From Girardia tigrina (lineage: Eukaryota), in assembly GCA_001938485.1 (NCBI GenBank), contig MQRK01226571.1:1-64000 (forward strand): 64,000 bases of DNA, written 5' to 3'. The translations under genes and the position numbers were made by a program. Position 1 is the first letter of the stretch; each line of letters opens with the position of its first letter. The notes below the pieces were generated by a model that ran no database searches, was not told the origin of the DNA, and saw only the letters and a program-made list of their open reading frames with translations. Below are positions 26,215-55,300 of the stretch, piece by piece.

Positions 26215-26957
26215 TGACGATGAACAGATTTTTCCCGTTTATTTTTCTTTTGATTTGATTAATAAATAACAACATTTAGAATTTTATTGCGTTTTTTCTC
26301 TTGTGGTCTATCAATAAAAATATAAAAGATAAAAATAAGTAGTCTAACCTAAATAACAAATAAATAATCAATTAAATTAGGTAAGGACTCATAAATGAAT
26401 GTAACATATGATATTAAAGAAGATAAAGATACAGAATTCCGATCGATAAAAAACAAACAAAATTTTCAATCATTAGGAACCCGGTAGATACTTGGTTTTG
26501 TTCACTGGTGAAAGGATGGGGTCAGATGAACTTAATTGGGTATGGCATAGACCATATACCAACATCAGGAAGAGGTACCTGATGGGGTTTATGTCGAAAT
26601 AATATGTTGGGATTGAATCCACAGTTACTTTAATTAAAATGAAATTTATTGAATCGAACACATATCTCGCACTATTCGAAATCGTATCTCTATAATTCCT
26701 TTTGAACTATGGGGTATGGACTCTACTGCAATTTCGAGGAATCTCCGAATAACTAAGCTTTGAATACTTTTACTGCACACTGGTGTTCCATACCGAAATA
26801 TCCATTTATTTTAGCAAACTTAGCTCATCTATTCTGAGACTTCAGAACTTAAATGAATTAAGAAGAAGTATTAAAATTTATATATTAATATTTATAGTTA
26901 TGTTATATTATCATTTATGATAATATATTTTAAAAAATTAAAAAAACTGAAAATATG

Positions 26958-27908
26958 TGTTGTGTGCAACCACATTTCGTGGTTTTTTATTGTTTGTTGT
27001 ACAGGAGAGTTTGGAAACCTTGTAATTGTGTTTGTATTTGTTTTGGTTATATTTGTGTTCATTTTTTAGTATATTTCGTTGTATATGAATGCCGTTTCCT
27101 ATTCTGTTTTTGTTGATCGAAGTAATCTTGAATTTAATATCAAAGAAAGGACAGAGAACAAATATTGTACAGATTTTAATAATTAACTTTATTTACTATT
27201 TATAATTCAAAAGAACGAAATTTATTTCAATTGACACTATTTTATTTCAATTTAAACGAAAAACAAATTTAATTGTATCGTTTCGCTTACAGAATCAAAT
27301 TTATATTTCTTTAAAAGTTTTTATCGTTGATTTAGTAAAATTGATGATTTTGGTGTATAAATTATTATTATAAAAAAAACGAATTTGTTTTAACGAGTAA
27401 TTAGCTTGATATGAATATTATTTGAAATAAAAATTTAAAATGGACTGAATCTTTTTCTTTACGTCGTTTTATTTTAACTGATTCTCGAAATGTGCGTTTT
27501 AAAACTCGTTATCAGTATCGTCAATTCTTTATTAATGATGATTGGAATTGTGCTTGCGGTTATTGCTCTGGCGAATGAATTTCTTTTATGAAGAACATTT
27601 ACCATATTGAAGCGCAATTTAAAAATTTCATAATTAAAATTAGAATCTCATCAGCAAGTTCAGGTGGAATATTTTCATTGATGCAGCAGAACGCAAATTC
27701 AATTGGAGCCTTCGCATTTGGGGTTGGAATCGCGTTGATTGCTCTGGCTATACTGGGCATCGTAGCGGTGCGTTGCTGTTCATTGAGGAAGATTCTGATT
27801 GCCTTAACTGAGAGACCATTTTCTCGGTTCTATCTTGTCTTTGGAGTCGTGTGCCGGTTTCGCCGATTTTGTGGACCGCGAGCTCTTCGTCTTGAGGAGA
27901 ACTCAACA
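26958..27908. mobile_element. 951-bp solo LTR (BEL/Pao- or Gypsy-type) inserted in the outer 5' LTR
   Basis: TGTTG...CAACA termini; 5-bp TSD ATATG (26953-26957, 27909-27913). Removing it restores an LTR matching 44238-44389. Confidence 0.9.
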
Positions 27909-28009
27909 ATATGTAAAAACAATTTAAATTTGTTTAAATAATATGTTCTATAATAAATATTAATCTTGTTCAACTTTTATTGATTTTATCATTATTAGAT
28001 ACATACAAC

Positions 28010-28407
28010 ATGGCGTCACGAACAAACGTTACAGCTCAGAAGTACTTGGAAGAACTGATGTTTAAGAAGAAAGAAGAAAAGCTATTAATCTTCGTGAGAC
28101 ATCATTGCAAGGAGAGATCAATAATCGACCATATAAACAACGTGAAAAAGTATATCAGTCTCTTCGATAAATCGGCGTTAGGAGATTCCGCAAAAATGGA
28201 TATTTTATGTCCTATTTTGTAAACAACTTTATTGCTCAGATCCAGAGTGAGTCGGAAGCTGATGTTACGTCGATGAATATCGACACAATGTTAATAAAAT
28301 TGATTGGCAAATTTGATTTAAAGAAATCAAAAGTTGGTCAGTTATTACCTTTGATACGTGTGAAACAGGAGGAAGGAGAAACGTTACTAGATTTCGCAAA
28401 TAGAATA
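28010..28407 (+). pseudogene. Outer element gag, N-terminal part
   Basis: The ATG overlaps the LTR end/PBS (MASRTNVT...). The frame reads ...RVKQEEGETLLDFANRI and resumes in frame as KVETFH... at 39675. Confidence 0.8.
28011..28024 (+). promoter_or_regulatory. Primer-binding site of the outer element (tRNA-Ser(CGA)-like)
   Basis: TGGCGTCACGAACA lies immediately after the LTR CA and is complementary to a tRNA 3' end ...UGUUCGUGACGCCA. Confidence 0.8.
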
Positions 28408-28559
28408 AGTTATGCGTGATTGATTAATTATTAAATATTGTTTGTTTAAATAATATATAGATTTTGTACGCGGTTTAAAATATAGTTTTGATTTGACTTT
28501 GAAAATGGATTTTAAAGAAACCAAAAACGTAACTGGTGACCACGCCGAAAATATCAACG

Positions 28560-29950
28560 CAATTACGAAAAACCAACAAAGAAATATTTTGCTTGCGTCG
28601 TTGCCGAAGAAGACTCAAGAAATTCTCAATTTCAATGTCCGTAAGTTTGACGGTAGAGATTCGCAAGAAGCGGGAAAATGGCTAAAGGATATCGATGAAT
28701 GACTGTCATTAAATGACTTGCATTTGGTGAGTGCATTTGATTTATTATTGTCTGAAGAAGCTGGAGAATTATGGAAGAATTCAAAAACGGATGAAATGAC
28801 TCAGGTGGACGCTCGAGAATGGTTTCGTGACATATTTATGAGGAAGAAGTCAATCTTAGATAATTTCATGGACTGGCGAATGTCAAGCAAGAGCTAAAAG
28901 AGAGATTTGCCACGTTTGAAATTCAGGTAAAGAAACTAATTAACAGTGTTGTTAATCAGAGTTGAGTCGGAAATAAATTTTAAATGAGTTTTTAACGAAA
29001 CGGGTGCGTAGTACCGGTCTGAGGGATTCACTGGATCTGAAACCGGAAATGAAGAGAGAAGATATGTGGACACTAGCTAAAGTCTATGAGAACCGAGAGA
29101 TCTCGGAAGATGAAAAAATGGAAGTAAACGCTTTTAATAATAAAACAAATATCAAGCAGAAGAATCCCCCAAATTATGCGCAAGCTGTGAAATAACAACC
29201 AACAAAGCAATTTCAGCAGTCTAATTTTGGTTCCAGAATATCAACGGATGAGATATTCATAGATAGGGACTTTCCAACCGGAGTAGTCCTACACAATCGG
29301 TCATTTCTGAATTCCGACAAACGTCGATGAGATAGCAGCCTTCGGTTTCTCTGAAACATATAGCTCGAAGACTCTATAATAGATGTAGGGGACTACCCCC
29401 GCCGCACGAGGAGCAACTGAAACCGGGTCAATGTTTTTGTTGCAGGGAAAATGATCACAGACGTTTTCAATGCCCATTGAAGGATAAATGTCTAATATGC
29501 GGTAAATCTGGTCATTATTTTAAGGAATGTAGTCTTTTGCAGAACAGCAGTTATCAGAGGCCACGGATGATTTTATGTGTTTATGATGAAATTCACGACA
29601 CGGCCCAATCCGGAGATGAATTAATTCTACATGATGTTGAACCGGAAAAAACCCGTTGCTTACATTTCGTCAATGGGATTGGAATAAATGATGAGAGCAA
29701 AAATCGGAATGTAGAGGAGTGGGACGAAATGCGGAAGTGAACTGACGGGAGAATGTGGAGTACGGTAGAGGTGGAAGGTGTTCGTTTAGAGATGTTGTGG
29801 GATTCAGGAGCATCGGTTACGGTGATGAATGAAGATTATTGGCGGAAGATTTGAGAACCGAGACTTTCAGAATCAGGAGTTCGATTAAGCGGTGTGTTTC
29901 CGACTGGTACAGAAATGCCCATGGGTGTTGTTTTATTAGATATTCGTTGG
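28560..29950 (+). pseudogene. Inner element gag and aspartic protease (degenerate)
   Basis: VRKFDGRDSQEAGKWLKDID; zinc knuckles CFCCRENDHRRFQC and CLICGKSGHYFKEC; protease LWDSGASVTVM. Confidence 0.85.
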
Positions 29951-30360
29951 AACAAAAAGTTCCTGCGCTATCACCACAGGACACTTATAAGGTACACGTA
30001 CCCAAAGACTTACTGAACGCGCAATTCGTTTGGTTAATTCGGGAGCACCCTAACTCACTGCAAACCCAATACACCGATCCATACCGCACACTTCATTTCG
30101 ATGCACAAAACAACACTGCAACCATCGATTTCAATGGTACCCACCGCATCGTCAAAATTTGCAAATTGAAGCCATGTATACAAATTGAAGATTGTCCCGT
30201 CGACATGCCGAAAGTCAATTCCCTTAACCAGAAAGCGTCTGTATCATTCTCACCATGGGAGCGAATGTCCGACTCCACACATCCGGTACCCATGTAATCA
30301 AAGCAGCGCTTTCAACCGTCTCCGACTTCTCACGGGGGGGGGGCTTATGTAGTGAACATT
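29950..30360 (+). mobile_element. Gypsy integrase C-terminal fragment with G-rich PPT and LTR start
   Basis: SLQTQYTDPY...KLKPC (GPY/F-type module), then a G10 run and TGTAGTG at 30348. Confidence 0.6.
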
Positions 30361-30714
30361 TCCAACAAAAAATCAAACCACGCTAAAATTTTCACAAATT
30401 TAAATATTATTTAAATGTAATTTAAATTTCTTTTATTTTTGTTGTCGCAAAACTATTTAATAATTACAAAATTAAAATTCCCAGAAGTTTTTTTTTCACA
30501 AAAAATATCGGGATCAATCGACCCAAGAATTTTTTCACATGAAATTAAATATGTAAATAAAAAAAACGAAAACAATTGTTTTAATGTTTCAACGGAGATA
30601 ATTCGAGTGTCACAAATTCAAACCAATTTAGACATTTTTTTAACCCTGAGCGAACTGCCGAAAAATCGTGTAAAATTTATTTTGTGATGAATAAATTTTG
30701 TATCCGATTCTGTC

Positions 30715-31040
30715 TTTTCCTTGTTTTTTGCAAATGGGAACCACCACGAAAACTCCCACTTCAACAACAAAGAATTGAAGGAACCTGGTGGGAGCTAATC
30801 CACGCACAACTGTTCGAGCACTCGCAGAAGCGTTTAATGTTGATCCCTCAAACGTCGCTCGGCACTTGAAACAAATTGGAAAATTGAAAAAGCTTGATAA
30901 ATATGAGTCAAACGAATTGAACGAAAGTAAAAAAAAATCGTCGTTTTGAGGTGTCTTCAACGCTTCTTCTGCCAACAACAACAACCCGTTTTTTATCGAA
31001 TTACGACGTTTGATGAGAAGTGAATTCTCTACGACAATTT
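30715..31040 (+). pseudogene. Mariner transposase fragment (cecropia-like)
   Basis: ANPRTTVRALAEAF...RHLKQIGKLKKLDK...RITTFDEK*ILYDN. Confidence 0.8.
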
Positions 31041-31369
31041 AGAATTCCATTTTACTTTATAGTTGTTGATAAATTAAATATTTATTAAGTTTTTGTGCAG
31101 CTGCAAAAAACTATTTAAAGTTCATCTAGCGGCTGATTTGATTAAATTGAAATCTGAAATACGTCATATTAACAACATCAATATGACTTTTACAACATTT
31201 ATTAATATCACAAGCACATTCACTATTGGACATTTTTCTTGATCAATATATTTCTGAATTCATACTAATTATTTTCAATAAATGAAAATCTTTGAATACA
31301 AATTATTAATTATAAAGAATCTAATTGGTTAAAATTAAATCTAAACATTTTTAAAAAAAGTACATATTG

Positions 31370-33189
31370 TTATGATAGAGATCTCAGACGGCATGGACAT
31401 GTGAGTAAGGTGCATGAACCATTGTCAGCGTTTAAAATTGTCATACATTTACGTGAGTATCCAGAACGTGCGGCAAAGTCAATGGAAGTTACGTCCTTCA
31501 AAACGAGAGAGTTAAAAACCAGAATCAAGTACCAATTTGGGGAGGATTACACACCTTTAATGAATGGGCAATAATTGGCGGATCATACAACCAGACATCT
31601 TGTGGAAGCCGGAATATGGCCAGGATATGTTAATATAGTAGAGTTGGCAAAAACGGCCGGAACAAAGAGGCTAGTTAAACCATTTTATGAATACAGACAA
31701 CAAATTAGAGCGAATCACGAAGAAAAGTATTGACACAGATATTTTAAACATCACGATTTTAATAATGGTTTCTATGATCCAGATTGAATTAGTACCAGTC
31801 ATATGCGAACAATTGAGGAGTACATACAAGAATATGGAGAACTATCTCTCAGGAAATATCACTGTAAGAGAGTGTTGTTGTTAATTTTTTAATTTTCAGA
31901 ATTGAGAATTTGATTTTTTAAAATTTCGAATTATAATCGAAATTAAAAAAAATAATAGAAAATAGAATTAAAAAAAAGAAAATAAAAAAAAGAAAATTTT
32001 TTTAAATAACAAATTTAAACTGTTGTAGATTAATAAATTTTGCAAGTTTTTAATTTCTTTTTTGATTTTGAATGGAAGATAATTCCCAACCTAACAATCA
32101 CAATACCGTCTTCTCCGATACAACCCACAATCAAGTTACAACTAAGAATGATGATGAGTGAACTATTAAGCAACCTTGATGAATTAATGGACTCAATAAA
32201 CGGTATAGATTTGTATAATTACCAAACAAGACCGTTGGGAAGCATAATCAATATCCTTAATAGTATCTGCAGCACGAGTGGGAAAAAGAAGTGGAGTTAC
32301 AACAATTAAATAAAATATTTTTTGCAAAGTGGATGACTCAAAACTCAAAGATTACATTGCAATATTTAGACCACTATGCCAGTTTTGAGTACTACATGCC
32401 ACCGATATTTGAAATTCGATGCCGAACAACAGTCAGGGACATGAAATTGGATATATTAAAGGATTATCAGTCTAAATCGACGCTGTATTATGGGATACGA
32501 GCACTGACGGATGACAATGCAGAGATAATAACCTTGGGAGTGAGTCCAATGGAAGTTTATCGTTCGGACGACAGAGAAACCTTGTTAACGGCGATAACGT
32601 GCACATCAGACGACGTCGCGAGTTATGTAAATTATAACAAGGACGCTTTGATCAACGAACTATTCGACCTTAACAAAAATTATTTTGTCAATGGAAAAAT
32701 GAAGGAAGATTCAATCTGGAGCAATAAGTATTATGTGCCGATGCAGATACAAACCGTATATGAACTCGGAAATGAGCTGCGAGAAGGATGAGAAGATGAC
32801 ATCAGGTATTTGTTAAAATGCGAAAAATATATAACCGGTTGCGAAATGGACCGTACCATACTTTTTACTTGTGGGAAATGTTAATGCAATACGGAAATAG
32901 AATATTAACAGGATGTCAACAACATTATCATATCGTTGTCAACGACAGAGCAACGGATCAGACAATCGACGTTCATGGAAAAGAACCAACGATAGAAGCC
33001 CTATATGATGCTGTCAATATTCGGACGCGAGATCCATACATTCTTATTTGGGAAGGACGACAGTTACTCAAAAATGGAGACATGAGAAAGATATTCTTTT
33101 GGTCTAGAGATACATTTACTTTTCAATTTTCATCTAGAGTTGTGGTAAGGATAGGAGGAACCGCCTTTGCCACTAAAATTTCTCTATGA
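31370..33189 (+). pseudogene. Degenerate gene(s) with about three ubiquitin-like (beta-grasp) domains, the last ending VVRIGG plus a 9-aa tail
   Basis: UBL1 FKIVIHL..MEVTSFKTRELKTRI..LMNGQ*LADH..LVEAGIWPG (~31433-31650). UBL2 FEIRCRTTVRDMKLDI..LYYGIRALTDD..IITLGV (~32345-32560). UBL3 TIDVHGKEPTIEALYDAV..LIWEGRQL..VVVRIGG (~32925-33159). Stops and frameshifts lie between the pieces. Confidence 0.6.
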
Positions 33190-33654
33190 ATCATGCAGTG
33201 AAAAAATTTGATATTTTGATTTTTTGTTATGTCATGTGTTATAAATCCCTTTTTTAAACCTTTCATAGAATTTAGAATACATAATATAAGAGCATTTCTT
33301 AATAATGTTTAATTAAATTACCTTGAGTAAAAATGGGTGAGAATCTTGCTAAGAATAAATCATAAGCACAGGATTCTTGCACCACAACAAATTATTTTTC
33401 ACTGTTTTGAGTGATAAAATAACAAAAAAAGATACACAAAAAACTTTATTATTTTAATTTGAAAAATGCGTATAATTTTGATTATTTAAACAATTGTCAA
33501 TGTACTTTGTTTTTCGAAATTTAATATTGAAATTTTGTTCAAATTTATTTTTGGTCCCCAGTTGCGAGGATTGACAAGATGGGGGACAAAAAAATACTAA
33601 TTAAATAAAAAAAGAAAAAGTTAAAAGAAGAATTATTATAGTCGTACTATCGAC

Positions 33655-34123
33655 GCTGACTTTTACTGCACCAAACTTGATCTAATGTATGCGGCACTTG
33701 GCGAGAAATACCCCGCTTTGATCAATCAAAACGAGTTCTTCTACAACAGGACAATGCAAAACCGCACACCGCCAAACAAACAAAGGAAAAAATCAAAAAT
33801 ATCGACGCCTTTGAACTTCTTCCACACCCAGCGTATAGTCCGGATCTTGCGCCATCCGACTATCACCTTTACCGCTCTATGGCACATTTTCTTCGTGGTC
33901 GCAGCTTCAATAATCTGGCCGAGGTCGAAGACGGGTGTCACCAGTTCTTCGCTTCTAAGAAGAAGGATTGATACCGCAGCGGGATCGCACAACTTGCCCA
34001 TAAATGGATTCAAGCTTTTGATTCAAATAACCTTTACTTTGAAACTTAAATGTTTTTTATTTGTTGTAAAATTATGTTTAAATTTTTAATAAAAAAATAC
34101 GAAAAGACTTTTGGTTCACCCTA
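33655..34123 (+). mobile_element. Mariner 3' half with right TIR
   Basis: LLQQDNAKPH...LPHPAYSPDLAPSDYHLYRSM..., ending GACTTTTGGTTCACCCTAA. Confidence 0.88.
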
Positions 34124-35334
34124 AACATTCCGCCGGGCGGCATTAAATAAAATAATTTAAAATTTAATGCAGAAGTCGTGGACACCACAAACTGTTTTTT
34201 AACCAACAGATATTACTATGTGCGAAACTTACTGTGTGTTTTACAACGATGCAAAAATACGACTAATATTGTTACAGTAATACTTCAATAACAAGTTAAA
34301 TAACTTTAACGATTTTAAATATTGTACAAAAATGTTCGCAGCGCCCCCAGAATTTTTCGCGGTGCACCGTTTGCTCGACACTGCAATAGACGAACATCGA
34401 CGCTCAACAAACCATTGCCAAACGATATTGTTCAATCTCTTCAAAATTTTCAAGACAAAATAGAGACTAAGTCTCATTGCAAATAAAACTTTATTTTTAA
34501 TTTCATTCATATTTTCTTTTCAATTCAAAGACATCAGCATTTCAATATCATCATTTTCCCATTCCAACATTTAAACAAAATTTTTTTATCATATTAAACA
34601 TTTTTTCTTATAAAATCATTTTTACAATGATTATTTTATCATATTAACCAAGAATTAGAAAATCACCAAAACTTTGCGAACTGTTGAATGATTAAAAAGA
34701 AAATTACCAAATAATAATAATATGAATAATTAGATAAATGTCAATGAAAAATAATACATCTCAACAAACGATCAGTTTCCGATTATTGTGAAATAACAAT
34801 CATCAAGATTGCAAAAGCAATAACAAAACAGTTTATATGAATTTAAAAATGCAAGGTTTTTCGTTACCAAACTTTTTTGAATTTTTCAATAATATATATG
34901 ACACGACGGGCGAATGGTTGTGGCCGGCGATTGAATATGCACCTGAAACCACGGTGCTTTTCCTGGCGAGATGGAGGGAACGGAACGAACACAGCAGAGA
35001 TTAATTTTCCGAGTTTAGATTGCGCTATTAAAACGGGAAGTGGGTCGCAATCTACCCCACGTGCGATGTAGTCCATATTGACAAGGTAGTTGATCAAACT
35101 ACCGCGAGTCGAATAGCGATGCGTTCGATCTAACTCGATAATTTGGTTAAACGTTTTTACTCTCACGATCGATCCGATGTCTCAAGAATAGTTTTTGAAA
35201 TTCATCGTTGCCGCCAGTAATATCGCGTCTTCATCGTAATTTAAGTAAAATCGTGTTGTTGTCGACTGCATATTTAAAACTCGCAACCAAGTCATTTAAT
35301 TATTTATTTCATTCAAACAATTTCTTTGTATCAC

Positions 35335-35500
35335 ATCACGAGATGATCAAACCGAGGCCGCAACGAACAGTTGTCCGACTAGCAAAGTTCGCGGACTACG
35401 TTTGCGCGGGGGTGAAGTCAATAAAGAAAAGCGGAACCTTGCAGTGCACGGGCAGCGTCTGTGTTTGTGCCTTGAAGGCAAGGGAGAGTGTGATTTAATT
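35335..35500 (+). mobile_element. Gypsy 3' end scrap (integrase tail, PPT, LTR start)
   Basis: RPQRTVVRLAKFADYV tail, then AAGGCAAGGGAGAG followed by TGTGAT. Confidence 0.5.
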
Positions 35501-36211
35501 ATTTTTGTTTAAATTGGTAATTTGCCAGTTTTGGGAATATTTCAAAAATATAGTTTGCTGGTCTTCATAATTTCTGTATTTGATTCTAGTTTTTCTTCTC
35601 AATATTTTATACTTAATATATTAAATCCAAAAAATTAAATTGATTCTTATTATTATATTTTCATTGAAATTTAAATCAGCTCACGGAGAATTTAAACTCT
35701 TTTGAGGCTTAGGATTCTGGGATCTCGTGTGTATCTTTGCGTAGCTTCTTGTAATCAAAATTAAGTCGTTGAAGATACCGATGAATCACCAATTTATCAA
35801 CTTTAAGTTCATGTACTAAATTTTAAATGCTTTGATTTGTAAGCGTCCAAAACAGATTAAAAATATTCATCGTATAACTTGAACCGTCGACCAGAGCGAG
35901 GATCATCCTTAAGACTCATGTCACTAAATTCATATCGCTTGAACTTTTTGTTGATAAAGTCGTGTGATTAGCAGTTCCTTCGCTTTATGCATCACAAATC
36001 TTTCTTTAAGAAAGTTTGAATTTATCAATGGTCACTTGATTGATCATGTCATGATTAATTGTCAATGGTTATTTAATATAAATGACGTAATAAAATTATA
36101 AGATAGCAAAATAAAATAGCTCCTTCATCGAAAATAACTTTTAGTAAGATTTTACTATTTAAAAAAATGTAAAACTTCAACCTAGACAATAAAATTTAAA
36201 TTCATTTTTAA

Positions 36212-36443
36212 CCCTTAATAACCTAGAGTTTCAATTTTTATACCAATCTTTTAAACCGAATGTTCACATTACTATTAGTTTTTTTTATAGGTTGGCTGTA
36301 CGTATTTTATTGTTATATAATATTCTTTCCAACAAATTTTTTTAGCTATTGATTTTTTTAGTTATTTTTCCCTTCATCTAGACTCTCAAGCAAACACAGT
36401 AATATTAAAAATAAATCACTTTCGTAAATCAGGCTACTAAGGG
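36212..36443. mobile_element. piggyBac-type MITE
   Basis: TTAA flanks; TIR CCCTTA(A/G)TA(A/G)CCT (11/13 match). Confidence 0.8.
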
Positions 36444-37081
36444 TTAAAGTGTGTTCATTTACTATATATACTATATATATACTATATACATAAAATAGTC
36501 AATGATATTTATTTTTCACAATATCTACCAGAATTTAGGATCACAATGGATGAGACATCGGCCTACATAGATTGATCTTCTCAAACAACTTTGATTTTTA
36601 GAGAACTACCTCAATTTATGTTTTTTCAACAGGTTATGATAGTTCAAGAGCTAGATGTGTTCTTGAAATAAATTTAAATTGTCAAAGGCTATCGCCATTA
36701 TTATTAATGAAAACAGTCCAAATCGATTATACTTCAGGCGTTAATATTTGGAAACGGAAAAAATTATTTTTTTTTGTAATTTTTTTAAATAATTTAAATT
36801 TGTGGAAACGCAAGAAAATAAATTTGGATTTAATATATTATTTTAAAATATTTTGCTGCTTTTGTGAGTTAATTAAAATTTTTAATGAATCAGAAACTTT
36901 TAAATGCAACAAAATTAGAATGAGAACCGGCTTATCTATTATCCAATATAAATAATTTTGGGTTTTGCACATGTTGATGTGACTCTGTGGTTTTCGAAAG
37001 CGCATTGCAAGTCAATTTTGAAGAAATTCTTGAAGATTTAATTATACAGATGATATATTGTGAGATGGAAGATATGATTTC

Positions 37082-37712
37082 TGTTACGAGTGATTGTTCG
37101 ACAGAAATCAATAAAAGAACGAGAATTGATCATCATTGCAGAATTTTTGTAAGACAGGAGAAATAACAGTCTGAGATCTATAACCAAGAGGTGGGAATAT
37201 ATAAAATACCTCTGAGACTAAAATAAACACCTCCAACGCTGGAGTTCAGTGACGGTGCAACAAGTTTTTATATTCGACGCAATGTGATATAAATAGGTAA
37301 TACAGGATCAACGACTCCTTTATGAGCATGCAGAATGATGTATTAGAGAAGTTACGTAAAAGATCAGGGATCACCTGTGCGGCCAGGCGGGCATACTTAT
37401 ACGTAGTATCCCTGAGAAACTAGAGACTCCTGTCTCTAGGCAAAAGTGCCCAAAAGAAGTTACGCGCCGTCCTCGCAAGAGGTACTATTTATCTGTCAAG
37501 GTAACTTGATGGATGTGGCTATACCATATGTTTAAACCCTGGTCCCGTGAAGCATGGCAAAAATGACTTCGATGACTCTATCCGCTGGCGTTGAGAGAGT
37601 CGTTGGTGACATTACTCAAGTCTAAGGCTTGGCCTGTGGAGTACATTAGTACAAGGGTTGGTCTCAGCACGGAGCATAGTTCCTACTAGTCACTATAATG
37701 GCGCAAGGGACA
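37082..37712. mobile_element. LTR-like, GC-richer non-coding segment
   Basis: Begins CTGTTACGA like 3171 and ends GGGACA. Internal perfect hairpin CTAGAGAC-TCCT-GTCTCTAG. No TSD found. Confidence 0.35.
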
Positions 37713-38224
37713 ATACACAAACTCCGGATTCACGTAAAAGATAATTCCAAAAACTTTTGTGAGATAACTAGGAGTTTGTTAAGAGTTTGATATCTATGTT
37801 AATCAATTCTAAAGATATGAACAACTGTTATCATGCTTATATAAATGATGAGAAATATTATTGAGCTTTAATCGATAAAGTTCAAATAGTGAATGGAACT
37901 TTTTTGATAAATGGAACTGATACTTCTAGAGAGACTTCTAGTACCTAGATGTAAGATCATCTTAGAACTTATCATAATACCTGCAAACACAAGATTGGTT
38001 AGCTTTAAATCACATCGAAGACAATGATTCTAGATACAAGAACAAAAGTTTGTTGCACTACTCTAACCTTGTAAAACCTCATTTCTTAGCCGATGCATTG
38101 AGTTTTCCACTAATATTAAAATTGTTGCCTTCATCTTTTTTTATCAATTTTATCCTCTTTTTGTGATCATTAGGCACTATTGTTCATTTTTAAAATAGAA
38201 ATTTTTGTATACATAATTTTTTTA

Positions 38225-39026
38225 ATTCTTTGTCATTTTATTTGCAACAAAATCGATAATTTCAATGTTAAGGCATTAATTTGGACCGAGGTTATTTGTG
38301 TGATTATGTTTGTTAATTATTTTATCCATCGAAATAATTAAAATTAAAATTCCTAATTTAAAATTCAAAAAATTTAAAAAAATTGTCAATATTTTTGTTT
38401 AATCTTAAATCGAGAGTTTGATATGAAAATTTAATTATCTATAAATACCTGTGCAATTCCAATATTTCCTTTTTCGGCTATACTTCTTTTAACAGAGTTC
38501 GAAGGATATGGTAAATCAATGTTATTTGTGTACCAGTCTTCCATAATTTTAATAGCTGTTTCATTTAACGACTTATTTTTCTTCGGCTTTTCCAAATGAC
38601 AGTCATTATTTACACTTTGATTAGTACGCTTGTTACTTGTGTTCTCCTCCTCATCTGACATAAAAAGGCTTTAGGGTTTGATTTGAATTCAATTCTTGAA
38701 CATCTAAAGACTTAATAAAATATAGGCAATATCTAAAACACCTGTTAAAGTATTTGATCCACCAGGAAAAGGATAAATTGATGAAACTGTTTTTGAAATT
38801 TGGTTTTCATCAGTGTTGCCAAATTCAAAATTTTTAAGCATCTCAAATCCTAAACTTTTTGACCACGACATAACATCCCAATTTGTTGGCATTAAACGTT
38901 TTATGTTTGGATCTTGAAAGATCTGACCATTAAGATCATTTTGAATAACGTTTTCCCTGGATTAAAAATAAGTTTCAAATGTTCTTTAAAAACAATAATC
39001 GTTCAACATTACCCTGGGTTTTGCAT
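38225..39026 (-). pseudogene. Spliced TALE-class homeobox gene (probably pseudogenised), antisense inside the inner LTR element
   Basis: Homeodomain KKNKSLNETAIKIMEDWYTNNIDLPYPSNSVKRSIAEKGNIGIAQ has the PYP TALE signature. GT-AG introns at 39012-38957, 38741-38704 and 38448-38404. Remnant helix 3 IKQ...ANK; one apparent frameshift before 38661. Confidence 0.75.
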
Positions 39027-39674
39027 AAATATCTAATTAAATATTACACTGATAAAATTTATAACAACATTTATTACACTGGATTTATAACAAAATTTTA
39101 AGTCACTTACTCATTCACCATAGGACCGTTTCTTATCTTCCTTTCTGATTAAAGTTAACTCAATTCTTCTCCGTGGCGAGTTTAAATTGATAAAAATAGT
39201 GTTACGAAGTTAAAATACAAAGTCCGATACAAAAACCGATTAATTTTATTTTAAATTTTTAATCAAATAACTAAAATGAATATTTTTAAATAAGCATTGT
39301 TTTTTTTTAATTTTAACAAATAAAATTCGTGGAAAACGTTTTTAAAAGATTATTCATATCTCAAATTGGTTTGACGAGTGAAGGCTCAACTATGGATTGT
39401 TGTAAGGAGAGTCGAAATTGTGTATATAATACAAATTGTAAACAATATATGAGTTCTCATAACACCTTTAAACAAAGTAATATATAAGAATGGAACTAAT
39501 AACAAAAAATTGATTACTTTGTAAAATTCGAAATCATTATGATAGTTATGTGTGATTGATTAATTATTAAATATTGTTTGTTTAAATAATATATAGTTTT
39601 TGTATGAGGTTTAAAATATAGTTTTGATTTGACTTTGAAAATAGATTTTAAAGAAACCAAAACGTAACTGAATA

Positions 39675-42600
39675 AAAGTGGAAACTTTTCATTTACCAGT
39701 AAAGTTGGATAATATTCTTGTAAAGATATTTCGACATAGTATAAGAGACAAAAATGTAGCAAAAGTATTGAAAATATTGAATCCATCCACAATAGCAGAT
39801 GCTTTAACAATGGTTAGAGAAGAAGACTGCGAAAAAGTTGATAATAATAATCATGAATTCTATAAAATGAACAAAAATATAGAAATATCAGAGTTATTGC
39901 AGAAAATCAAGAAGTTAAAGTAAAAAAATAAACAACTACGAGATGAGATATCAAAACTGGAAGATCGATGTTTTCCGAAGACTAACAATTTTGAAAGAAA
40001 TAACAAATACGAAAACGTTAAATGCTACAAATGCAATAAAAATGGGCATATTAAGAAATGTTGCAGAACAATAATATGTTTTGAATGCGGCGGAAATCAC
40101 AAAAAAACTCACTGTCCGAACCTCAAGACGGTGAAAGTGATGAAGGAAGAAGAACTATCGGATACCCAGAGCATTAACTCGACATCTCATTCTTCAAGAT
40201 GAGAGACTAGGCAGTTTAATGATATTTCAAAATCTAAACCAGAAAAACGGGATTTAACTAACCAGTATGTGGATTACATCCATGGCACGACCAAAAAGCC
40301 TAAAAGGCAACTATAAAAAGAGGTGCTGATGAAAAAGTCGTCTACAATAAACAAACCCATTGTTCAATTTACTATTGATAACAGAAAAATAAATGTTATG
40401 TTTGACACTAGAGCCGAGTTAAACGTGATAAGCAAAAGCCTTGTAAAACGTTTAACGGAAGAATCGGGCATAAGGATATATCCATCAGAAACGAAAGTCA
40501 GATGTGCCAACGATCAAACAGTAATTTGCGAAGGAAAAATTAAAGTTTCGGTAAATTTTGGTCGTATAGCAACGAAACATGTTTTTGATATCATGCCAGA
40601 TATATCACCAGATATTGTTATTGGATGTATGTTCAATTATTAGACAAAATATGGATAACTTACCGGAAAAGGTTAAGAATGCCACCATGGAGATAATTCG
40701 GCAGAATATAGAAATTTTTAGCAAATATACTTTAGACGTTGGTTTCACAAACATTATCGAACATTCCATAAAAACAGAAGAAGCAAAACCAATTGTATTT
40801 AAACCTCGAAGGATTTCAATAGGTTTAGAAGAAGCATGAAAAAATATGGTATAAGCGTCAGGTCAGAGATTGATTCTGTCGAAATTCAAAATGTTATTGT
40901 TCCGTTAGTTTCAGCCACCAAAGCTGCGATGACTTTAAACTAATCAATACCGTATATAAGAGTTTGGATGCGAATGAAGGGACAAAAAGAGCTCAGAAGT
41001 TTTTAATTAAGCGCATTTATTTTATGTAATAATGTAGAATTATCCGGATCTCGAGAGTTATTTGTGAAAGATACTGTGTTAGACAAAAATATGCAGAAAT
41101 TATTAATATCCGATTATTTATTATTTATGGGGGATAAACTGGAAATGACAGAGAAAGATTTCATTTGTAATTCCTTAGTTACTGCACATGAATGATTTAT
41201 ATGGGTTCGCATATATATGCCGGATGGAGGTGTCAAAATTTTACATGCTGTATCTTTTTTAGGGCATATGGAAGAATGGAAAGACGAAATGATACAATGT
41301 ACCAAGAAAAGCATTTTAGTTTATCATAAGTATCAAAGGAAAGAGAAGTATCCAAATTAACTGATGTATCTTCAATTATTAGACAAAATATGGACAACTT
41401 ACCGGAAAAGGTTAAAAATTCCACCATGGAGATAATTCGGCAGAATATGGAAATTTTTAACAAATATACTTTAGACGTTGGTTTCACAAACATTATCGAA
41501 CATTCCATAAAAACAGGAGAAGCAAAACCAATTGCATTTAAACCTAGAAGGATTCCAATAGGTTTAGAAGAAGCTGTAAATACTTAAGCAAAGGAGTTAG
41601 AAGAGGCGGGTATAATCAGGCAAAGTAATTCTCCGTGGAATTTCCCATTAGTAATCATTTAAAAGAAAAATGGAGGTATACGATTATGTATTGACTAACG
41701 GGGATTAAATGCAAAGACTGAACGTCCAATATATCCGATCCCATCTAGCAAAGAAATTTTCGATGCGATAGAAGAAGCGAAATATTTTTCTACTGTAGGC
41801 ATATCAAGCGGATATTATCAAATACCTATAAAAGAGGAAGATATAAAGAAAACGGCATTTACAACAAAATACGGGCAATACGAATTTACCCGAATGCCAT
41901 TCGGTTTGTGTCAGCTCTAGCTACATTCCAAAAAATGATGAATCTTATTATGCAAAGAGAAAACTGGTTAACATGTCTGATTGATTTGGATGACGTCCTC
42001 GTTTTTGGAAGGACAATAGAAGAGCACAATAACCGATTAAGTTTAGTGCTTTAGAGGATAAAAGAAGCAGGTCTTAAATTGTCTGCTGAGAAATATTGCA
42101 TTTTGAAAAGCAGTGTATGGTATCTTGGTCACATAATAGATGCGGAAGGGGTGAAAACGGACCCTGAAAAATTGGGTGCGATAAAAAATTGGCATATTTC
42201 AAATTGCATAAAGGAGTTACAATCGTTTCTACGATTATATAAATATTATAGAAGATTCATTAAAAATTATACCATGTTATCGGAACCTCTCACTTCGATG
42301 ATTAAGACTGATTCAAAAATTTAGTGGAACGCGGATAAAATTAATTCGTTTAATAAACTGAAAGATGCTTTATCCTCCCCAACCGTTTTAGCTCTTCCAA
42401 CAACCGACGGTCATTACATACTGGACACCGATGCTTCACAAAACTCAATTGGTGCAGTATTATCGCAAATACAAAATGGTTCTGAACGTGTTCTGACATA
42501 CGCTTCAAAAACCCTAACTAAAAGTCAAAAAAAATATTGCATTACTCGAAAAGAACTGCTGGCAGTGTATGTTTTTGTTTTGAAATTTAAACATTATTTA

Positions 42601-44224
42601 TTAGGTCATAACTTTACGGTCAGAACAGACCACAAAGCTTTAAAATGGTTCTTAAATTGAGACAGTCCAAATGCGTCGTAATTTTGTGTGTGTAAGTCAG
42701 AGTTAGAAGTATATGATATGACAATAGAATACTGGAAAGGAAACGATCAGGCGAATGCCGACGCTCTATCAAGATTGGGTTATTGTGAACAATGCACTCT
42801 TAATTATAAAGAACCACTGAAAATACGAAACGTTAAAGTTTTCGAAGACAGTTCAAGCGATTCAAGCGATGAAAAAGCTATATGCAAATTATTTATAAAT
42901 GATGGCAATCAATTTAAAGATGTTGTAATTGTATGGAATATTAAAATGATTACAAAAAGTATAACCATAACCGAAGTACCTACGGAAATCAAAGCAGATA
43001 AATGTTTTAAACAACTATTTTCACGTTTATCAGATCTAAGACTACGAGGATACTTACTTTATTTACTAGACAATGACATTTACAAACTAGTTATTCAAAA
43101 GTCTGATAGACATATTATTATTCAAAAAATGCACGAAGGTCTGGGGGCATACAGGTATAGAGAGAATCACAGTTGCATGAAAAAATGAATTCTACTGGCC
43201 AAGTATAGATCACGATATAAAAGATTTTTTTACTAAGTGTGAAGCGTGTGCTAAATTAAAATGTAAAAACGGTCGTGGTAGAGCACCAATTACCCATATA
43301 GAAGCAAACAGACCATTTGAAGGATAAGACCTAAAGAAGGATATTGCTATATTTTAGGAATAATCGACAACTTCTCCAAATATGTAGCTTTAATCCCTCT
43401 TAGAACAATAGATTAAAAATCTAAAATAAAATTATTATGAGATCAATGGACATCAAAGTACGGGAAACAAGAGCATATACATTCAGATAACGGTTCTTAT
43501 TTTTTTTCTGCTGAATTTAAAACCTTTTGTTTTTCGATGAATATTAATCAAAATCAAAGCTCACCTTATTATCCGCAATCAAATGGATTAAATGAACGAA
43601 GTTTTCGCACAGCTAAAGAAATGATAAATGTGTATATGTATTCTCGTAACACACGAGATTGGACAGAAGTTCTTACGATTGTGGAATACGGTTTGCGATG
43701 TGAAATGCAGAAATCCAGGGGGTATAGCCCCTTGGAAGCAGTATATAGAAGAAAACACTCATTACTAAATTTTATTGGTAAAAACGAGGGCAGAAGAACA
43801 GAAAGTGAATATGTATTGTAGTTAAAGAACACGCAACAAAAGCTGAATAAATTAGTCTCAGATAATATAAAAAATAATTCGAAGAATTCAGATAATCTAT
43901 CAGAAACATGTGGTATACCAAGCTCAGAGTTGGAGACAAAGTGTTAATAAAAGAAACGGGGAGAAAAGATCAGGAAAAACAAAATACGTCGGACCGTTTA
44001 CTATAAAGAAGATAAATAATGATTGGACTTATGAATTATTGGACAAAGTATCTCATACACTCCTGAAAAGAAACTACAATCAAGTTAAAAGATATAAAGG
44101 AAGATTAAGTATTCCTTGTGATCGGACATCAAGTGTATCATCCAGCTCTGTCGCAAAAACGATAGTGAAGGATAAGAGATATCCAGTAAGAAGCAAAAGA
44201 AATCCAATTCCAAAATATCGGTGA
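39675..44224 (+). pseudogene. Outer element gag C-terminus and pol (PR-RT-RH-IN), many stops/frameshifts
   Basis: Knuckles CYKCNKNGHIKKCC and CFECGGNHKKTHC; PR MFDTRAELNV; RT SPWNFPL, RMPFGL, LDDVLVFG; RH LDTDAS, TRKELLA, TDHKAL, NADALSR; IN HSDNG, YPQSNGLNER, YVGPF. Confidence 0.93.
40633..40837 (+). repeat. ~205-bp copy of 41372-41575 inserted upstream within pol
   Basis: Near-identical TCAATTATTAGACAAAATATGGA...GGTTTAGAAGAAGC occurs at both sites. Confidence 0.9.
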
Positions 44225-46199
44225 TCCCAGAGGGGGATGTTATATTATCATTTTGATAATATATTTTAAAAAATTAAAAAACTGAAAATATTTAAAAACA
44301 ATTTAAATTTATTTAAATAATATGTTATATAATAAATATTAATCTTGTTCAACTTTTATTGATTTTATCATTATTAGATATATAAAACAAGTTAGCGATT
44401 TTGATATCTGGTTTGTGCGAAATAAGAAACCATCATTCCTTATAATTTTTTTGCAAAATCGTTAATTGTTGTATTAATAAATATTTGGTATTATGAACTC
44501 AATCATTGATCACGAACTCAACATTCTGAATTTGATTTCCGAATATATAGTATGATTCTAGTGAGGCAAAGTTTGATTGGTCTGCAAATAAAATTCTTTA
44601 ATCTGCAATGATCGTATGATATTATTGCGTGGGCGTGATGTGATACAAGTCTGCAATCAATTAAGGTTCATTTCCATAAATACATGGTATCAAATGCCTC
44701 AGTAACATAGCTAGGAGTGCTTTGATTTGTTAATTTCTAAGTTATCACTTCATTAGTTCTATTTTTATTAAATTATCGATTTTTCTTATTTTACTCATTA
44801 CTATAAGTATTTTCTTTGGAGTTTTTTGTGATCTAAGTGCTCTATAACGCTCATACCCAAAAACATGAGCCATAACTGTTTATATGCTTCAAATACAGTT
44901 TGAACGTAATCAGTACCTGTATCAGTGACGAACCGACCGTTAAATGATAATTTTACTTGCAACGTAGTGTTGCAAGAAGAAGAATCTTTTCTTTATCTTC
45001 CCTCAATCACCCTCCATCACCTCAAACATCTACCACAAATTCTAGATAATATATGATATTTTTTCTTTCTATCAATTTCTCTAACAAGTGACACAGAGTC
45101 CCGTTAAAACATAAAAACGTTTATATTCCTGATTCATTAATTAATTCATATCTTTACGTTGTAACTTTTTTGATGTGTGAAATCAAATCGTTTTTTTATC
45201 AGTGTTTCGTAAATCAATAGATTTTTGATAATTGTGTATAAATAAAAAATAAATAAATGCTAAAAAATTATTATTACAAAAAAAATTTAAAGAAAAAAAT
45301 TAAAAGATTTTTAAAAAAATTGAGTTTAAATGCATTAGTTAAATAAAAAAATTAGAGTTATGTTTTGGCGATCGATAAAATAATCAATGAGATGACGTTA
45401 TCTTTGGTGGAATTTGATTTTGATATTGGTTGTTTTATTCGAATTAAATGTAATTTATGAGTTTTGGCGCAATTGTCAATGTGCAAAATTTAAATAAATT
45501 TTTATGAGTAATATATTTTTTGAGACATTTTGATCAAACAATCGAATTTTCAATTGCATATTTAAATTTCAATCTTCATGACATTTGATATAAGTTATTC
45601 AATAAACGAAATCTCTCCTCAAACGATGATTGTTTTTTTGTTTTAAAAAATCGATTCAAAACGTTATGTCGAATTTTGTTAAGTTGGATAAAGAACCGAT
45701 TGTCAATTGTAATAAAGATTCAAATGGTAAATCGAATATATTTTGACATGATGCTTCATTTGAGTCTGTCAATTCGAGCCTGAGTTGGGAAAGGTCTTTT
45801 GAATCGACGCCGTCATCGAACCAACATAATCTCAACAATCGTTTCAAATCGAATTTCGATGATTGGAAAAAGCTTTTAAACTATTCAAAATCTGAAAATA
45901 AATTGCAATTGAATAGTAATAATAATAGTAATACTAATGACAATAATCGATCATTCGCGATGGACGAGGAAACAGAGTTACTTTTGATTAAGGTATTCTC
46001 CATGTTAATATCTGCACGACCCAGAAATAGGACACGAACGCTAGAGTGTTGCAGCCGCGCTTCGCCTGCTCTGTTGTAACCAACAGCCATATTGACTGGA
46101 CAAAAAATTGGATATACTAAGTACTGCTGTTTCCATTACTTTTAGGATAGTCGAAATCGCGCTCAATACTACCAACGCACAGATTATTTTTTACGAAAT

Positions 46200-52383: not shown

Positions 52384-55300
52384 GTCGTCCCTAGTTACCG
52401 TGGTTACCATGGTTACGTAACCAGTTACCACGCGGGGTTACCATGGCAACGGTCGCGATCACCCTAGCAACGGTCACGGTTACCATGGCAACGGTCGCGA
52501 TCACCCTAGCAACGCTTCTGATTGGTTCCTTGGTTCCCTAGCAACGGTCGTGATCACCTTAGAAACGCTTCTGATTGGTCCCCGGTTCCCTAGCAACGGT
52601 CGCGATCACCTTAGCAACGGTCGCGATCACCTTAGCAACGGTCGCGGTTCACTTGGAAACGCTTCTGATTGGTTCCCGGCTCCTTAGCAACGGTTTCGGC
52701 TCCCAGGGTAACGGTAACCAAGGAACTTTTCTCATTAGCAACGGATACAGTGATCCAAGGCGGTTGTAACCATGGTAACGGTCCCCGTATCCATAGCAAC
52801 CGTGACCCCATAACTAAGGACCGTAGAAAAAAGTGCTAATCGATCACTGCACAGTGTCCAAATGTGCTAAGGAATATTTTGAAAGTGCTAATCGATAGGG
52901 CACATTTTGCCACACATTTCTAATGTGCTAACACAGTGCTTTTTAAGTTGTACATGTACAAAAGTACAAAAATTAATACATTAAATTTTTTAAAAGTACT
53001 AGTGTCAAAAATCGATATCATATGTTTGATGCACATTTTGATTCTCTATTTGAATGTACAATTCAAATTTTCATATATTGATTACTTTTCTCTATAATTA
53101 GCATAATGTATAAATTTACACAAAGTGCACATTGATTTTAAAGGTACGTGGAAGCAGAATATCAGAAAAGTGCTCATATACTTGAATAGGAAACCATATA
53201 TATACATTCAGATTCAACATCAACATTTTCATAAAAGTGCTGATAAATCGATTTTTTCGAACATTTTTCAAATTCTCAAAAAAGTGCTCAAAAATCTATA
53301 TTTTCGTATATATCTGAAACCTATATGATATATGTGTTTTGTTTTACCGTCATACAATACTTCATGAATTGTCTAATGTACTTAGTAATCAATCACAAGT
53401 ACCATGGTTACCGTAACCAAGATACATAACATTTTATTTTACATGTAAAAACGACATGTATAAAACTCCTATTGTACTTTAAACATCAATATAATACATA
53501 ACATCTTTACAATCATCTATACAATCATNNNNNNNNNNNNNNNNNNNNNNNNNNNNNNNNNNNNNNNNNNNNNNNNNNNNNNNNNNNNNNNNNNNNNNNN
53601 NNNNNNNNNNNNNNNNNNNNNNNNNNNNNNNNNNNNNNNNNNNNNNNNNNNNNNNNNNNNNNNNNNNNNCACATAAGTATAATCACAAGTACCATGGTTA
53701 TATATTATATTATATTATATATAACATTACTTATATATATCTATATATTATACTATTTAATATATTATATTATACTATGTTATATTATATTATTTTATAT
53801 ATTATATTATATTATGTATTATATTATTATGTATAATATATATACACCTTAGAAACCATCATTGCTATCTTAAAAACCATGAAAAACATCTTATAAATCA
53901 TCGAAAACATGTAAAGACCATCAAAATTACACAAAAAAGGGACAAAAATCAATTCTGCCTAGGCTACACATGTGCTAATCAATACTGTACATGTACAGCC
54001 TAGGCAGCCTAGGCAGCCTAGGCAGCATATCTAAGATTAGTACAAGTGTATAAGATATAAGTTCATAATTGTATAAAGTGCAATATATTCATGTTTTAAT
54101 ATAATATAGTGTAAAGTGAGGCCGAATACCCATAGGGTATATAAGATGAAGCAAGCAAAATATCGAAAATCTGTCTGAATACATAGATAGAAANNNNNNN
54201 NNNNNNNNNNNNNNNNNNNNNNNNNNNNNNNNNNNNNNNNNNNNNNNNNNNNNNNNNNNNNNNNNNNNNNNNNNNNNNNNNNNNNNNNNNNNNNNNNNNN
54301 NNNNNNNNNNNNNNNNNNNNNNNNNNNNNNNNNNNNNNNNNNNNNNNNNNNNNNNNNNNNNNNNNNNNNNNNNNNNNNNNNNNNNNNNNNNNNNNNNNNN
54401 NNNNNNNNNNNNNNNNNNNNNNNNNNNNNNNNNNNNNNNNNNNNNNNNNNNNNNNNNNNNNNNNNNNNNNNNNNNNNNNNNNNNNNNNNNNNNNNNNNNN
54501 NNNNNNNNNNNNNNNNNNNNNNNNNNNNNNNNNNNNNACGACATGTATAAAATTCCTATTGTACTTTAAACATTAATATAATACATAACATCTTTACAAT
54601 CATCTATACAATCATATACACAAGTATAATCACAAGTACCATGGTTACCGCAACCACTATACATAACATTTTAATATTATATACATATTATTATTATATT
54701 ATATATTATATTATGTATTATTATATTATTATATTATTATATTATTATTATATTATTATGTATATTATATATACACCTTAGAAACCATCATTGTTATCTT
54801 AAAAACCATGAAAAACACCTTAAAATCATGAAAAATACCTTAAAAATCATCAAAAACATGTAAAAACCATCAAAATTACACAAAAAAGTGTAAAAAATTA
54901 ATTCTACACATGTGCTGCCTAGGCTAATCAATACTGCACTAGGCTGCATACATGCTCATCAATACTGTACTAAGCCTAGGCTGCCGTTAAATCAATAATT
55001 TCACTATTGTACTAAGTGCAATGTATTCATGTTTTAATATAATATAGTGTAAAGTGAGGCAGAATGCCCATAGGGTATAGATAGCGAAGCAAGCAAAATA
55101 TCGAAAATCTGTCTGAATACATGTATAGTAACCCATAGGTAAATAGTCAGAATATGATCTTAGATTCTCGAAAAAATCAATACATAGTGCTTAATTGATA
55201 TGTTGTGTATTATAGTGTAAAGTGGGATAGAACTCTCAAATGGTTTTATATGGCGAAACAAGCAAAATATCGAAAATCTATATGTATGTTCTGCCTCACT

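What the first reader, a model, noticed from the sequence alone, without database searches (positions are those of the whole stretch)
38225..39026. Intron-retaining TALE homeobox gene lying antisense next to a 3' LTR
Seen: a homeodomain with the WY...PYPS TALE signature, three short GT-AG introns (56, 38, 45 nt), one of them right after the helix-3 Q, and an upstream donor at ~39110. No PBC or MEINOX domain is visible upstream. Established: introns survive retrotransposition only when antisense to the element RNA, which is the orientation here, and spiralians have lineage-specific TALE expansions. Inference: mobile-element dispersal of a divergent TALE gene, possibly driven from the 3' LTR.
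Basis: partly seen in the sequence, partly recalled or inferred. Interest (0 to 1): 0.72.

Follow-up and report, generated by a model that had tools for sequence, protein, structure and literature searches.

The report
Dead homeobox fragment inside nested retrotransposons
This is a broken, partial copy of a flatworm-type TALE homeobox gene that sits backwards inside two nested retrotransposons, likely put there once by a DNA rearrangement, while the intact, spliced version of the gene is assembled on other contigs of the same genome.

Summary
The TALE homeobox, its antisense orientation and the neighbouring LTR are real, but the window holds a dead fragment, not a gene. Exons 1-3 and 5.3 kb of intron 3 (33114-39293) lie inside an LTR element (28408-39669) that is nested in another (26901-44389); both have 5-bp target duplications. 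The copy has an extra base before the homeobox and lacks the exon for the recognition helix. The '45-nt third intron' is wrong: spliced contigs from two organisms join the 38448 donor to an exon (VNSWFANRR...) that lies at least 9 kb downstream, on other contigs. That intact source gene is under purifying selection (9 synonymous, 0 replacement changes in 40 homeodomain codons) and most resembles spiralian TALE clade III (Schistosoma Smp_063520), moderately supported. Only one element-borne copy was found. The LTR beside it has no polypurine tract and the element lacks RT, RNase H and integrase, so DNA-level rearrangement is likelier than retrotransposition; an assembly misjoin is not excluded. 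No dispersal or LTR-driven expression is shown. Modest interest.

The parts
39013..39026 (-). coding exon 1 of the TALE fragment (ATG at 39026)
   Evidence: short loose ends in X4 and X5
38957..39012 (-). intron 1, 56 nt, GT-AG
   Evidence: removal seen only through 13- and 8-letter ends
38742..38956 (-). exon 2, no Pfam domain
38704..38741 (-). intron 2, 38 nt, GT-AG
   Evidence: skipped in contigs of 4 of 4 runs laid
38449..38703 (-). exon 3: linker and homeodomain helices 1, 2 and the start of helix 3; out of frame in this copy
38662..38666 (-). T run with one extra base (frameshift at codon 89), found only in the window copy
   Evidence: absent from X1, X2 (and, realigned, X4, X5)
33114..38448 (-). 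first 5.3 kb of the long intron 3 (true donor at 38448); cut off at 33114
   Evidence: 97% to C62914/C74882, 94% to C132882, 91% to C182729
33114..39293 (-). whole stretch shared with the source gene's contigs (upstream limit is a minimum)
33114..33119 (.). left junction: about 6 nt shared between a cut-off repeat (family R) and the cut-off intron
37365..37742 (.). insertion present only in the window copy of intron 3, with an 11-bp target duplication
39544..39669 (+). right-hand LTR of inner element C (AGTTA...TAACT); no polypurine tract before it; left flank ATGAT, right flank GAATA
28408..28534 (+). 5' LTR of inner element C, followed by a primer-binding site; left flank GAATA
28535..29961 (+). 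decayed gag and start of protease of element C; C-family sequence stops at 29961
29962..33113 (.). patchwork of unrelated repeat fragments (another gypsy 3' end, a mariner-like piece, repeat family R 31386-33113)
   Evidence: the first two read from the sequence
26901..28010 (+). 5' LTR of outer element A, split by a 943-nt insertion (26957-27899); target duplication AGTTA at 26896-26900
39670..44237 (+). decayed rest of element A (gag, protease, RT, RNase H, integrase with many stops), polypurine tract at its end
   Evidence: read from the sequence; not confirmed by Pfam
44238..44389 (+). 3' LTR of outer element A; target duplication AGTTA at 44390-44394

Best explanation
The window holds a frameshifted 5' fragment (exons 1-3 and part of intron 3) of a spliced TALE homeobox gene whose complete form is assembled on other contigs; the fragment lies antisense inside two nested LTR elements and was likely copied there once by a DNA-level rearrangement, not by reverse transcription. 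Shown: the nesting and target duplications, the frameshift, the missing last exon, the source gene's exons, its splicing and purifying selection. Inferred: element A inserted, C inserted into A, then about 6-10 kb of DNA from the TALE locus replaced C's interior, joined on the right through recombination at a 126-bp C-family LTR and on the left through microhomology; the copy then decayed and makes no DNA-binding protein. The source gene likely encodes a 222-aa single-homeodomain factor of spiralian TALE clade III (SPILE-E type).
For: Nesting: LTR pairs with 5-bp duplications AGTTA and GAATA; C-family elements make 5-bp duplications elsewhere. Fragment: extra base at codon 89; last exon absent from the 78-kb contig and present on 4 other contigs. 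Source: contigs of X1, X4, X5 join exon 3 to that exon; contigs C62914-C74882-C132882 overlap, and C132882 and C182729 leave and re-enter the shared intron at the same base, 35338. X1 and X2 carry the source's alleles. Selection: 9 synonymous, 0 replacement in 40 homeodomain codons against organism B. One copy: 6 full-length matches of 19, five of them alike over 1503 shared positions. DNA route: of 26 other C LTR places examined, 9 follow a polypurine tract, 15 precede a primer-binding site, 2 are solo with matching flanks; the LTR at 39544 is none of these and has unlike flanks; C sequence stops at 29961; the left junction has about 6 nt in common; promoter-side DNA and all introns are kept.
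Against: No DNA run was available, so neither junction is confirmed in reads, and the assembly is fragmented and redundant. No contig with an empty insertion site for element A appeared (40 of 1335 and 40 of 623 candidates scored). The predicted donor-side LTR junction was not found (exact pattern), and no C LTR lies in the 833 nt upstream of the ATG on C62914. The right LTR shows no clear sign of coming from another C sub-lineage. Divergence from the source (1-3% near the exons, 5-9% further into the intron) overlaps what two contigs downstream of exon 4 show (98-86%), so the fragment could be a rearranged allele and not an extra copy. Microhomology is also typical of RT template switches (PMC5131818). 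Clade III placement: support 96 SH-aLRT, 88/94, or unresolved, by tree.
Confidence: 0.62

Rival explanations
1. Assembly misjoin or rearranged second allele: the stretch is the other haplotype of the single TALE locus, stitched by the assembler or scaffolder between repeats into the A/C nest, or an allele broken in place; no extra copy exists.
For: 255,254 contigs, with the same loci filed 3-5 times; the right junction is a high-copy 126-bp LTR (834 candidates); divergence is in the range seen between contigs downstream of exon 4; homopolymer +1 is a common error.
Against: No N gap between 19484 and 53529; the contig returns to the same A element with matching duplications on both levels; the left junction shares about 6 nt, too few for an overlap join; all other contigs of exons 1-3 and of exon 4 share identical cores, and the window differs from them at 32 of 1490 positions.
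Confidence: 0.2
2. RNA-level capture: an antisense, unspliced read-through RNA of the TALE locus was copied by template switching into element C, which integrated into A; the polypurine tract was lost later.
For: Antisense orientation with introns kept; cargo replaces part of the element's interior; short shared sequence at a junction, as in LTR-mediated retrocopies (median 6 bp; PMC5131818, passages); both LTRs present with a target duplication.
Against: No polypurine tract or any C sequence before the right LTR, with the break exactly at the LTR edge; needs a 6-kb antisense RNA across promoter and introns; published cases are spliced mRNA pieces; no second copy.
Confidence: 0.11
3. The fragment is functional: read antisense from C's 5' LTR it yields small RNAs or antisense RNA against the source gene, or it makes a 94-aa truncated peptide.
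For: 98.6% exon identity to the source (7 of 483) would allow cross-silencing; it lies in element orientation downstream of a 5' LTR; 4 synonymous to 3 replacement differences.
Against: The contigs seen carry source alleles only; about 4.5 kb of decayed repeats separate the 5' LTR from the fragment and a further 5 kb of intron precede the exons; ancestral states at some sites show that part of the differences arose in the source.
Confidence: 0.07

Closest known systems
Spiralian TALE clade III (Paps et al. 2015, PMC5322547; with NfSPILE-E in Barton-Owen et al. 2018, PMC6118893), e.g. Schistosoma Smp_063520
   Same: Single C-terminal TALE homeodomain with the PLN...WY...PYP...G.I...QV.SWFANRR pattern; P0059's homeodomain is letter for letter the one printed as TALE_Clade_III_Smp_063520 (compared by eye); the source shares 32 of 63 residues with it against 16-19 with IRX, TGIF and PBX; the 43-residue tail behind the homeodomain matches only P0045/P0078, the own paralog and fluke proteins (14 of 113).
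   Different: The source is much shorter (222 against 689 aa); this genome has two such genes; clade III itself had 10% support in Paps et al.; the window copy cannot encode the domain.
Single-copy Pack-TIR captures by transposition-independent gap filling (Tan et al. 2021, PMC8277862)
   Same: One copy, host fragment inside an element, interior of the element replaced, microhomology at a junction.
   Different: The carrier here is an LTR element, the cargo is 6 kb or more, and one junction is exactly at an LTR edge, which points to LTR-LTR recombination.
LTR-mediated retroposition (Tan et al. 2016, PMC5131818)
   Same: Host sequence between two LTRs, part of the element's ORFs replaced, short shared sequence at the junction.
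   Different: Cargo is unspliced, antisense and includes upstream DNA; no element sequence or polypurine tract is left before the 3' LTR; no further copies found.

Membership tests
TALE class homeodomain | three-residue loop extension with PYP between helices 1 and 2 | tested here: met
   PF05920 over cut-off; aligns without gaps to TALE proteins
TALE class homeodomain | recognition helix WFxNxR encoded in cis (window copy) | tested here: not met
   absent from the 78-kb contig; frameshift upstream
TALE class homeodomain | recognition helix WFxNxR (source gene) | tested here: met
   exon 3-exon 4 joins in X1, X4, X5
Canonical PBX/MEIS/PREP/IRX/TGIF | groups with canonical homeodomains; PBC, MEINOX or IRO companion domain | tested here: not met
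   16-19 of 63 identities; split from PBX, IRX, TGIF with 97/89; no Pfam companion domain. The AU test did not reject a PBX sister position (p 0.119); MEIS, PREP and MKX were not in the trees
Spiralian TALE clade III / SPILE-E | homeodomain groups with Smp_063520-type sequences | tested here: inconclusive
   96 SH-aLRT (quick), 88/94, unresolved under the mixture model; named mollusc references were not in the tree
Spiralian TALE clade III / SPILE-E | single homeodomain, no PADRE region | tested here: inconclusive
   one homeodomain; exon 2 has no significant match to any of 113 proteins, among them bivalve TALEs; no PADRE profile was built
Spiralian TALE clade III / SPILE-E | expression or function in early cleavage | not testable with these tools
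   runs carry no stage information
LTR-mediated retrocopy | cargo between two LTRs with a target-site duplication | tested here: met
LTR-mediated retrocopy | polypurine tract or element 3' end kept before the 3' LTR (textbook requirement, recalled) | tested here: not met
LTR-mediated retrocopy | cargo derived from processed mRNA | tested here: not met
   all introns and upstream DNA kept
Mobile, amplified gene-carrying element | several copies with different target sites | tested here: not met
   1 element-borne copy; counts are lower bounds
Gypsy-type LTR retrotransposon (family C) | RT, RNase H, integrase in this order between LTRs, with primer-binding site and polypurine tract | tested here: met
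   fuller copy L123: RVT_1, RT_RNaseH, rve; flanks

The most novel reading that the evidence does not exclude
Recombination between LTRs moved the 5' half of a spiralian-specific TALE gene, antisense, into a nested gypsy element, where it is read as transposon RNA and feeds small RNAs that silence the intact gene in trans: a haplotype-specific, transposon-made regulator of a SPILE-type factor in a flatworm, and a snapshot of how spiralian TALE duplicates begin.
Probability: 0.05. Interest if true: 0.65.

Novelty: new member of a known kind. Interest (0 to 1): 0.27.

Why it matters
As found, it is a pseudogene fragment in a repeat nest, which is ordinary in a 1.4-Gb repeat-rich genome. Two things are of some use. 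It shows one route, rearrangement at LTRs, by which pieces of a spiralian TALE gene get copied, and that this event gave no working gene. And it leads to two intact, spliced, conserved clade III-like TALE genes in what is likely a planarian; my three searches listed no paper on them, and a long, repeat-filled helix-3 intron split over contigs hides one of them from Pfam-based genome scans (one search missed both).

Tried and rejected
First reading that the only 3' LTR was the far one at 44238-44389: dropped once the nested element C was seen. Reading that the gene had lost its recognition helix in all copies: dropped. Alternative acceptors near 38350 and 38330: no WFxN follows. Word-index search with exon 3, longer proteins: none of 21 candidates scored; search with P0045 found only itself. 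Empty-site haplotype for element A: not found. Donor-side LTR junction: not found. LTR site sharing to show a recombinant LTR: inconclusive, 5 substitutions between the window's pair against 1, 3, 3 in three fuller elements and a median of 3 over all pairs. No RNA holder is on record as RNA; runs are 'RNA?' guesses; X7 laid nothing; no contig covers 38956-39225, so the upstream donor is untested. One cargo-carrying DNA transposon with ends at both junctions: no fetched locus matched both sides. Paralog L023 inside an LTR pair: no direct repeat on its 10-kb contig, although a decayed gypsy piece lies upstream. Earlier findings of the scan: nothing in 3 look-ups. Paper search for homeobox capture by LTR elements with all six terms: 0 papers. 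No structure prediction was run; it would not separate the explanations.

Full report
Setting. The window is bases 1-64000 of a 77,957-base contig in a 1.43-Gb assembly of 255,254 contigs. It is AT-rich with short introns, and its homeobox set includes flatworm-type TALE genes; I infer a flatworm, likely a planarian.

The observation. A partial TALE homeodomain lies on the minus strand (PF05920, 24.2 bits, cut-off 24, positions 1-30 of 40). The ATG at 39026 and GT-AG pairs of 56, 38 and 45 nt are as described. Spliced that way, the window copy shifts frame at codon 89 and stops after 94 codons, before the homeobox, and no WFxNxR follows the third pair.

Copies. A DNA search with 38100-39300 gave 19 matches, 6 of them full length: the window and five contigs of 1.7-2.5 kb at 97%. 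The five are alike over 1503 shared positions (0-4 differences over their whole overlaps) and are in frame through exon 3. Protein searches added one paralog at 45-46%, filed three times, with an intron at the same helix-3 position and an intact last exon. The Pfam scan of the genome (47 matches from 148 candidates) missed both genes. These counts are lower bounds.

The true gene. Six runs hold part of the stretch, none on record as RNA. Laid on the window, contigs of X1 and X2 (one sample, organism A) skip the 38-nt intron exactly and lack the extra base; X1 matches the five contigs at all four listed substitutions. X4 and X5 (two samples, organism B, about 89% alike) splice at the same place. 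X1, X4 and X5 leave the window at 38447 into sequence reading VNSWFANRR. That exon is not on the window's contig but is on four other contigs behind a CAG acceptor, and the same three contigs lie on it with the end of exon 3 as their loose end. X1 also has contigs on intron DNA before exon 4, so it holds pre-mRNA or DNA as well; the GT-AG joins are what marks the others as transcripts. The source locus can be followed from C62914 through C74882 to C132882 by identical overlaps; C132882 leaves and C182729 re-enters the window-shared intron at the same base (35338), and C182729 carries exon 4 6.9 kb further on. Intron 3 is thus at least 9 kb; no single contig bridges it. The model is 222 aa. Against X4, 40 homeodomain codons show 9 synonymous and 0 replacement changes, the linker 4 and 6, exon 2 6 and 6 (31 of 46 differences used: 35 were listed, 4 beside the indel dropped; one K-to-E change lies outside the counted stretch).

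Family. A phmmer search with exon 3 gave 77 hits, mostly spiralian-type non-canonical TALEs where named. P0045 (unnamed) has the same homeodomain end and tail (39 of 63 identities). P0059 (Schistosoma) has the homeodomain printed as TALE_Clade_III_Smp_063520 in supplementary figure 7 of PMC5322547 (compared by eye). The tail behind the homeodomain matches 14 of 113 proteins: P0045, P0078, the paralog and fluke proteins. Trees on 68 columns: source, paralog, P0045 and 9 further rows (8 named fluke proteins, 1 unnamed) at SH-aLRT 96 (123 rows, quick); 88/94 (26 rows, LG+G4); under the mixture model (42 rows) only source, paralog and P0045 hold (92/84) and the link to flukes is open, while all non-canonical rows part from PBX, IRX, TGIF and SIX at 97/89. 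The AU test did not reject a PBX sister position (p 0.119). Rows left out of the smaller trees were near-duplicates and long branches; MEIS, PREP, MKX and the named mollusc references were in none. Clade III (with SPILE-E, per table 2 of PMC6118893) is the best fit, moderately supported; it had 10% support in the original paper.

The elements. Outer element A has LTRs at 26901-28010 (split by a 943-nt insertion) and 44238-44389 with the duplication AGTTA; inner element C has LTRs at 28408-28534 and 39544-39669 with the duplication GAATA. A fuller C copy has RT, RNase H and integrase in gypsy order. But C sequence stops at 29961. Of 26 other C LTR places examined (from 40 scored of 834 candidates, plus three fetched regions), 9 follow a polypurine tract, 15 precede a primer-binding site and 2 are solo with matching flanks; the LTR at 39544 is none of these. 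At the other end the intron is cut at 33114 against a cut-off repeat, with about 6 nt in common, and no other scored contig spans that join (40 of 461 scored).

Mechanism. Reverse transcription needs a polypurine tract next to the 3' LTR (textbook, recalled), so this structure could not have been copied as it stands. An LTR whose two flanks belong to different insertion sites is the usual mark of recombination between LTRs (recalled). I therefore favour one DNA-level event that replaced C's interior with DNA from the TALE locus (0.62). Against it: no reads test the joins; the donor-side LTR and an empty site were not found; LTR site patterns were inconclusive; divergence from the source (7 of 483 exon, 22 of 715 near-intron positions, 91-94% further out) overlaps that between contigs downstream of exon 4. 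Misjoin or broken allele: 0.20. RNA capture with later loss of the tract: 0.11. Functional antisense or truncated product: 0.07.

Literature seen. PMC5322547: passages and part 2 of supplementary file 2 (file 1 could not be searched). PMC6118893: passages and search hits in its supplement. PMC8524836: passages and part 1 of section 5. PMC6225667, PMC5131818, PMC8277862: passages. Morino et al. 2017: not seen, only as cited; by PMC6118893 it included flatworm TALE sequences and may already list these genes. Searches listed no paper on planarian clade III TALE genes; one search found none on homeobox capture by LTR elements with all six terms.

Verdict. Partly confirmed observation, partly supported interpretation. 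A single dead fragment in a gypsy nest, a new member of a known kind; the by-product, two intact clade III-like genes, is the more useful lead. Interest 0.27.

Noticed in passing
G000:C133021:4480-5320 (L023): Intact paralog of the source gene with the same helix-3 intron (47 nt); a spliced contig of it is in run X1. A decayed gypsy piece lies upstream, but no LTR pair encloses it.
   Followed up: partly
window 10872-12209 (+): Intronless PCI-domain ORF resembling COP9 signalosome subunit 2 (name recalled; PCI by Pfam) with GC 0.55 and third-position GC 0.72-0.99 in surroundings of about 30% GC.
   Followed up: no
window 5825-7369 (-): Intronless CAAX prenyl protease (M48) ORF of 514 aa.
   Followed up: no
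window 52384-56720: Large inverted-repeat block with 21-nt tandem units and two N gaps.
   Followed up: no
window 31386-33113: Multicopy repeat (family R, 82-86% to many contigs) with ORFs of 175 and 129 aa that have no Pfam match.
   Followed up: partly
G000:C249267 (L037): Homeodomain close to the flatworm sequences labelled TALE clade IV in PMC5322547 (by eye).
   Followed up: no
L035, L038, L043-L045: Several near-copies of a divergent IRX-like homeobox, some with changed residues, suggesting a small recent expansion.
   Followed up: no
L073 (contig beyond the window, minus strand): Exon of a voltage-gated potassium channel, Shal/Kv4-like by recall.
   Followed up: no
G000:C132882 and C182729: A GC-rich retroelement sits in intron 3 of the source gene at the position matching window 35338 and is absent from the window copy.
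   Followed up: partly
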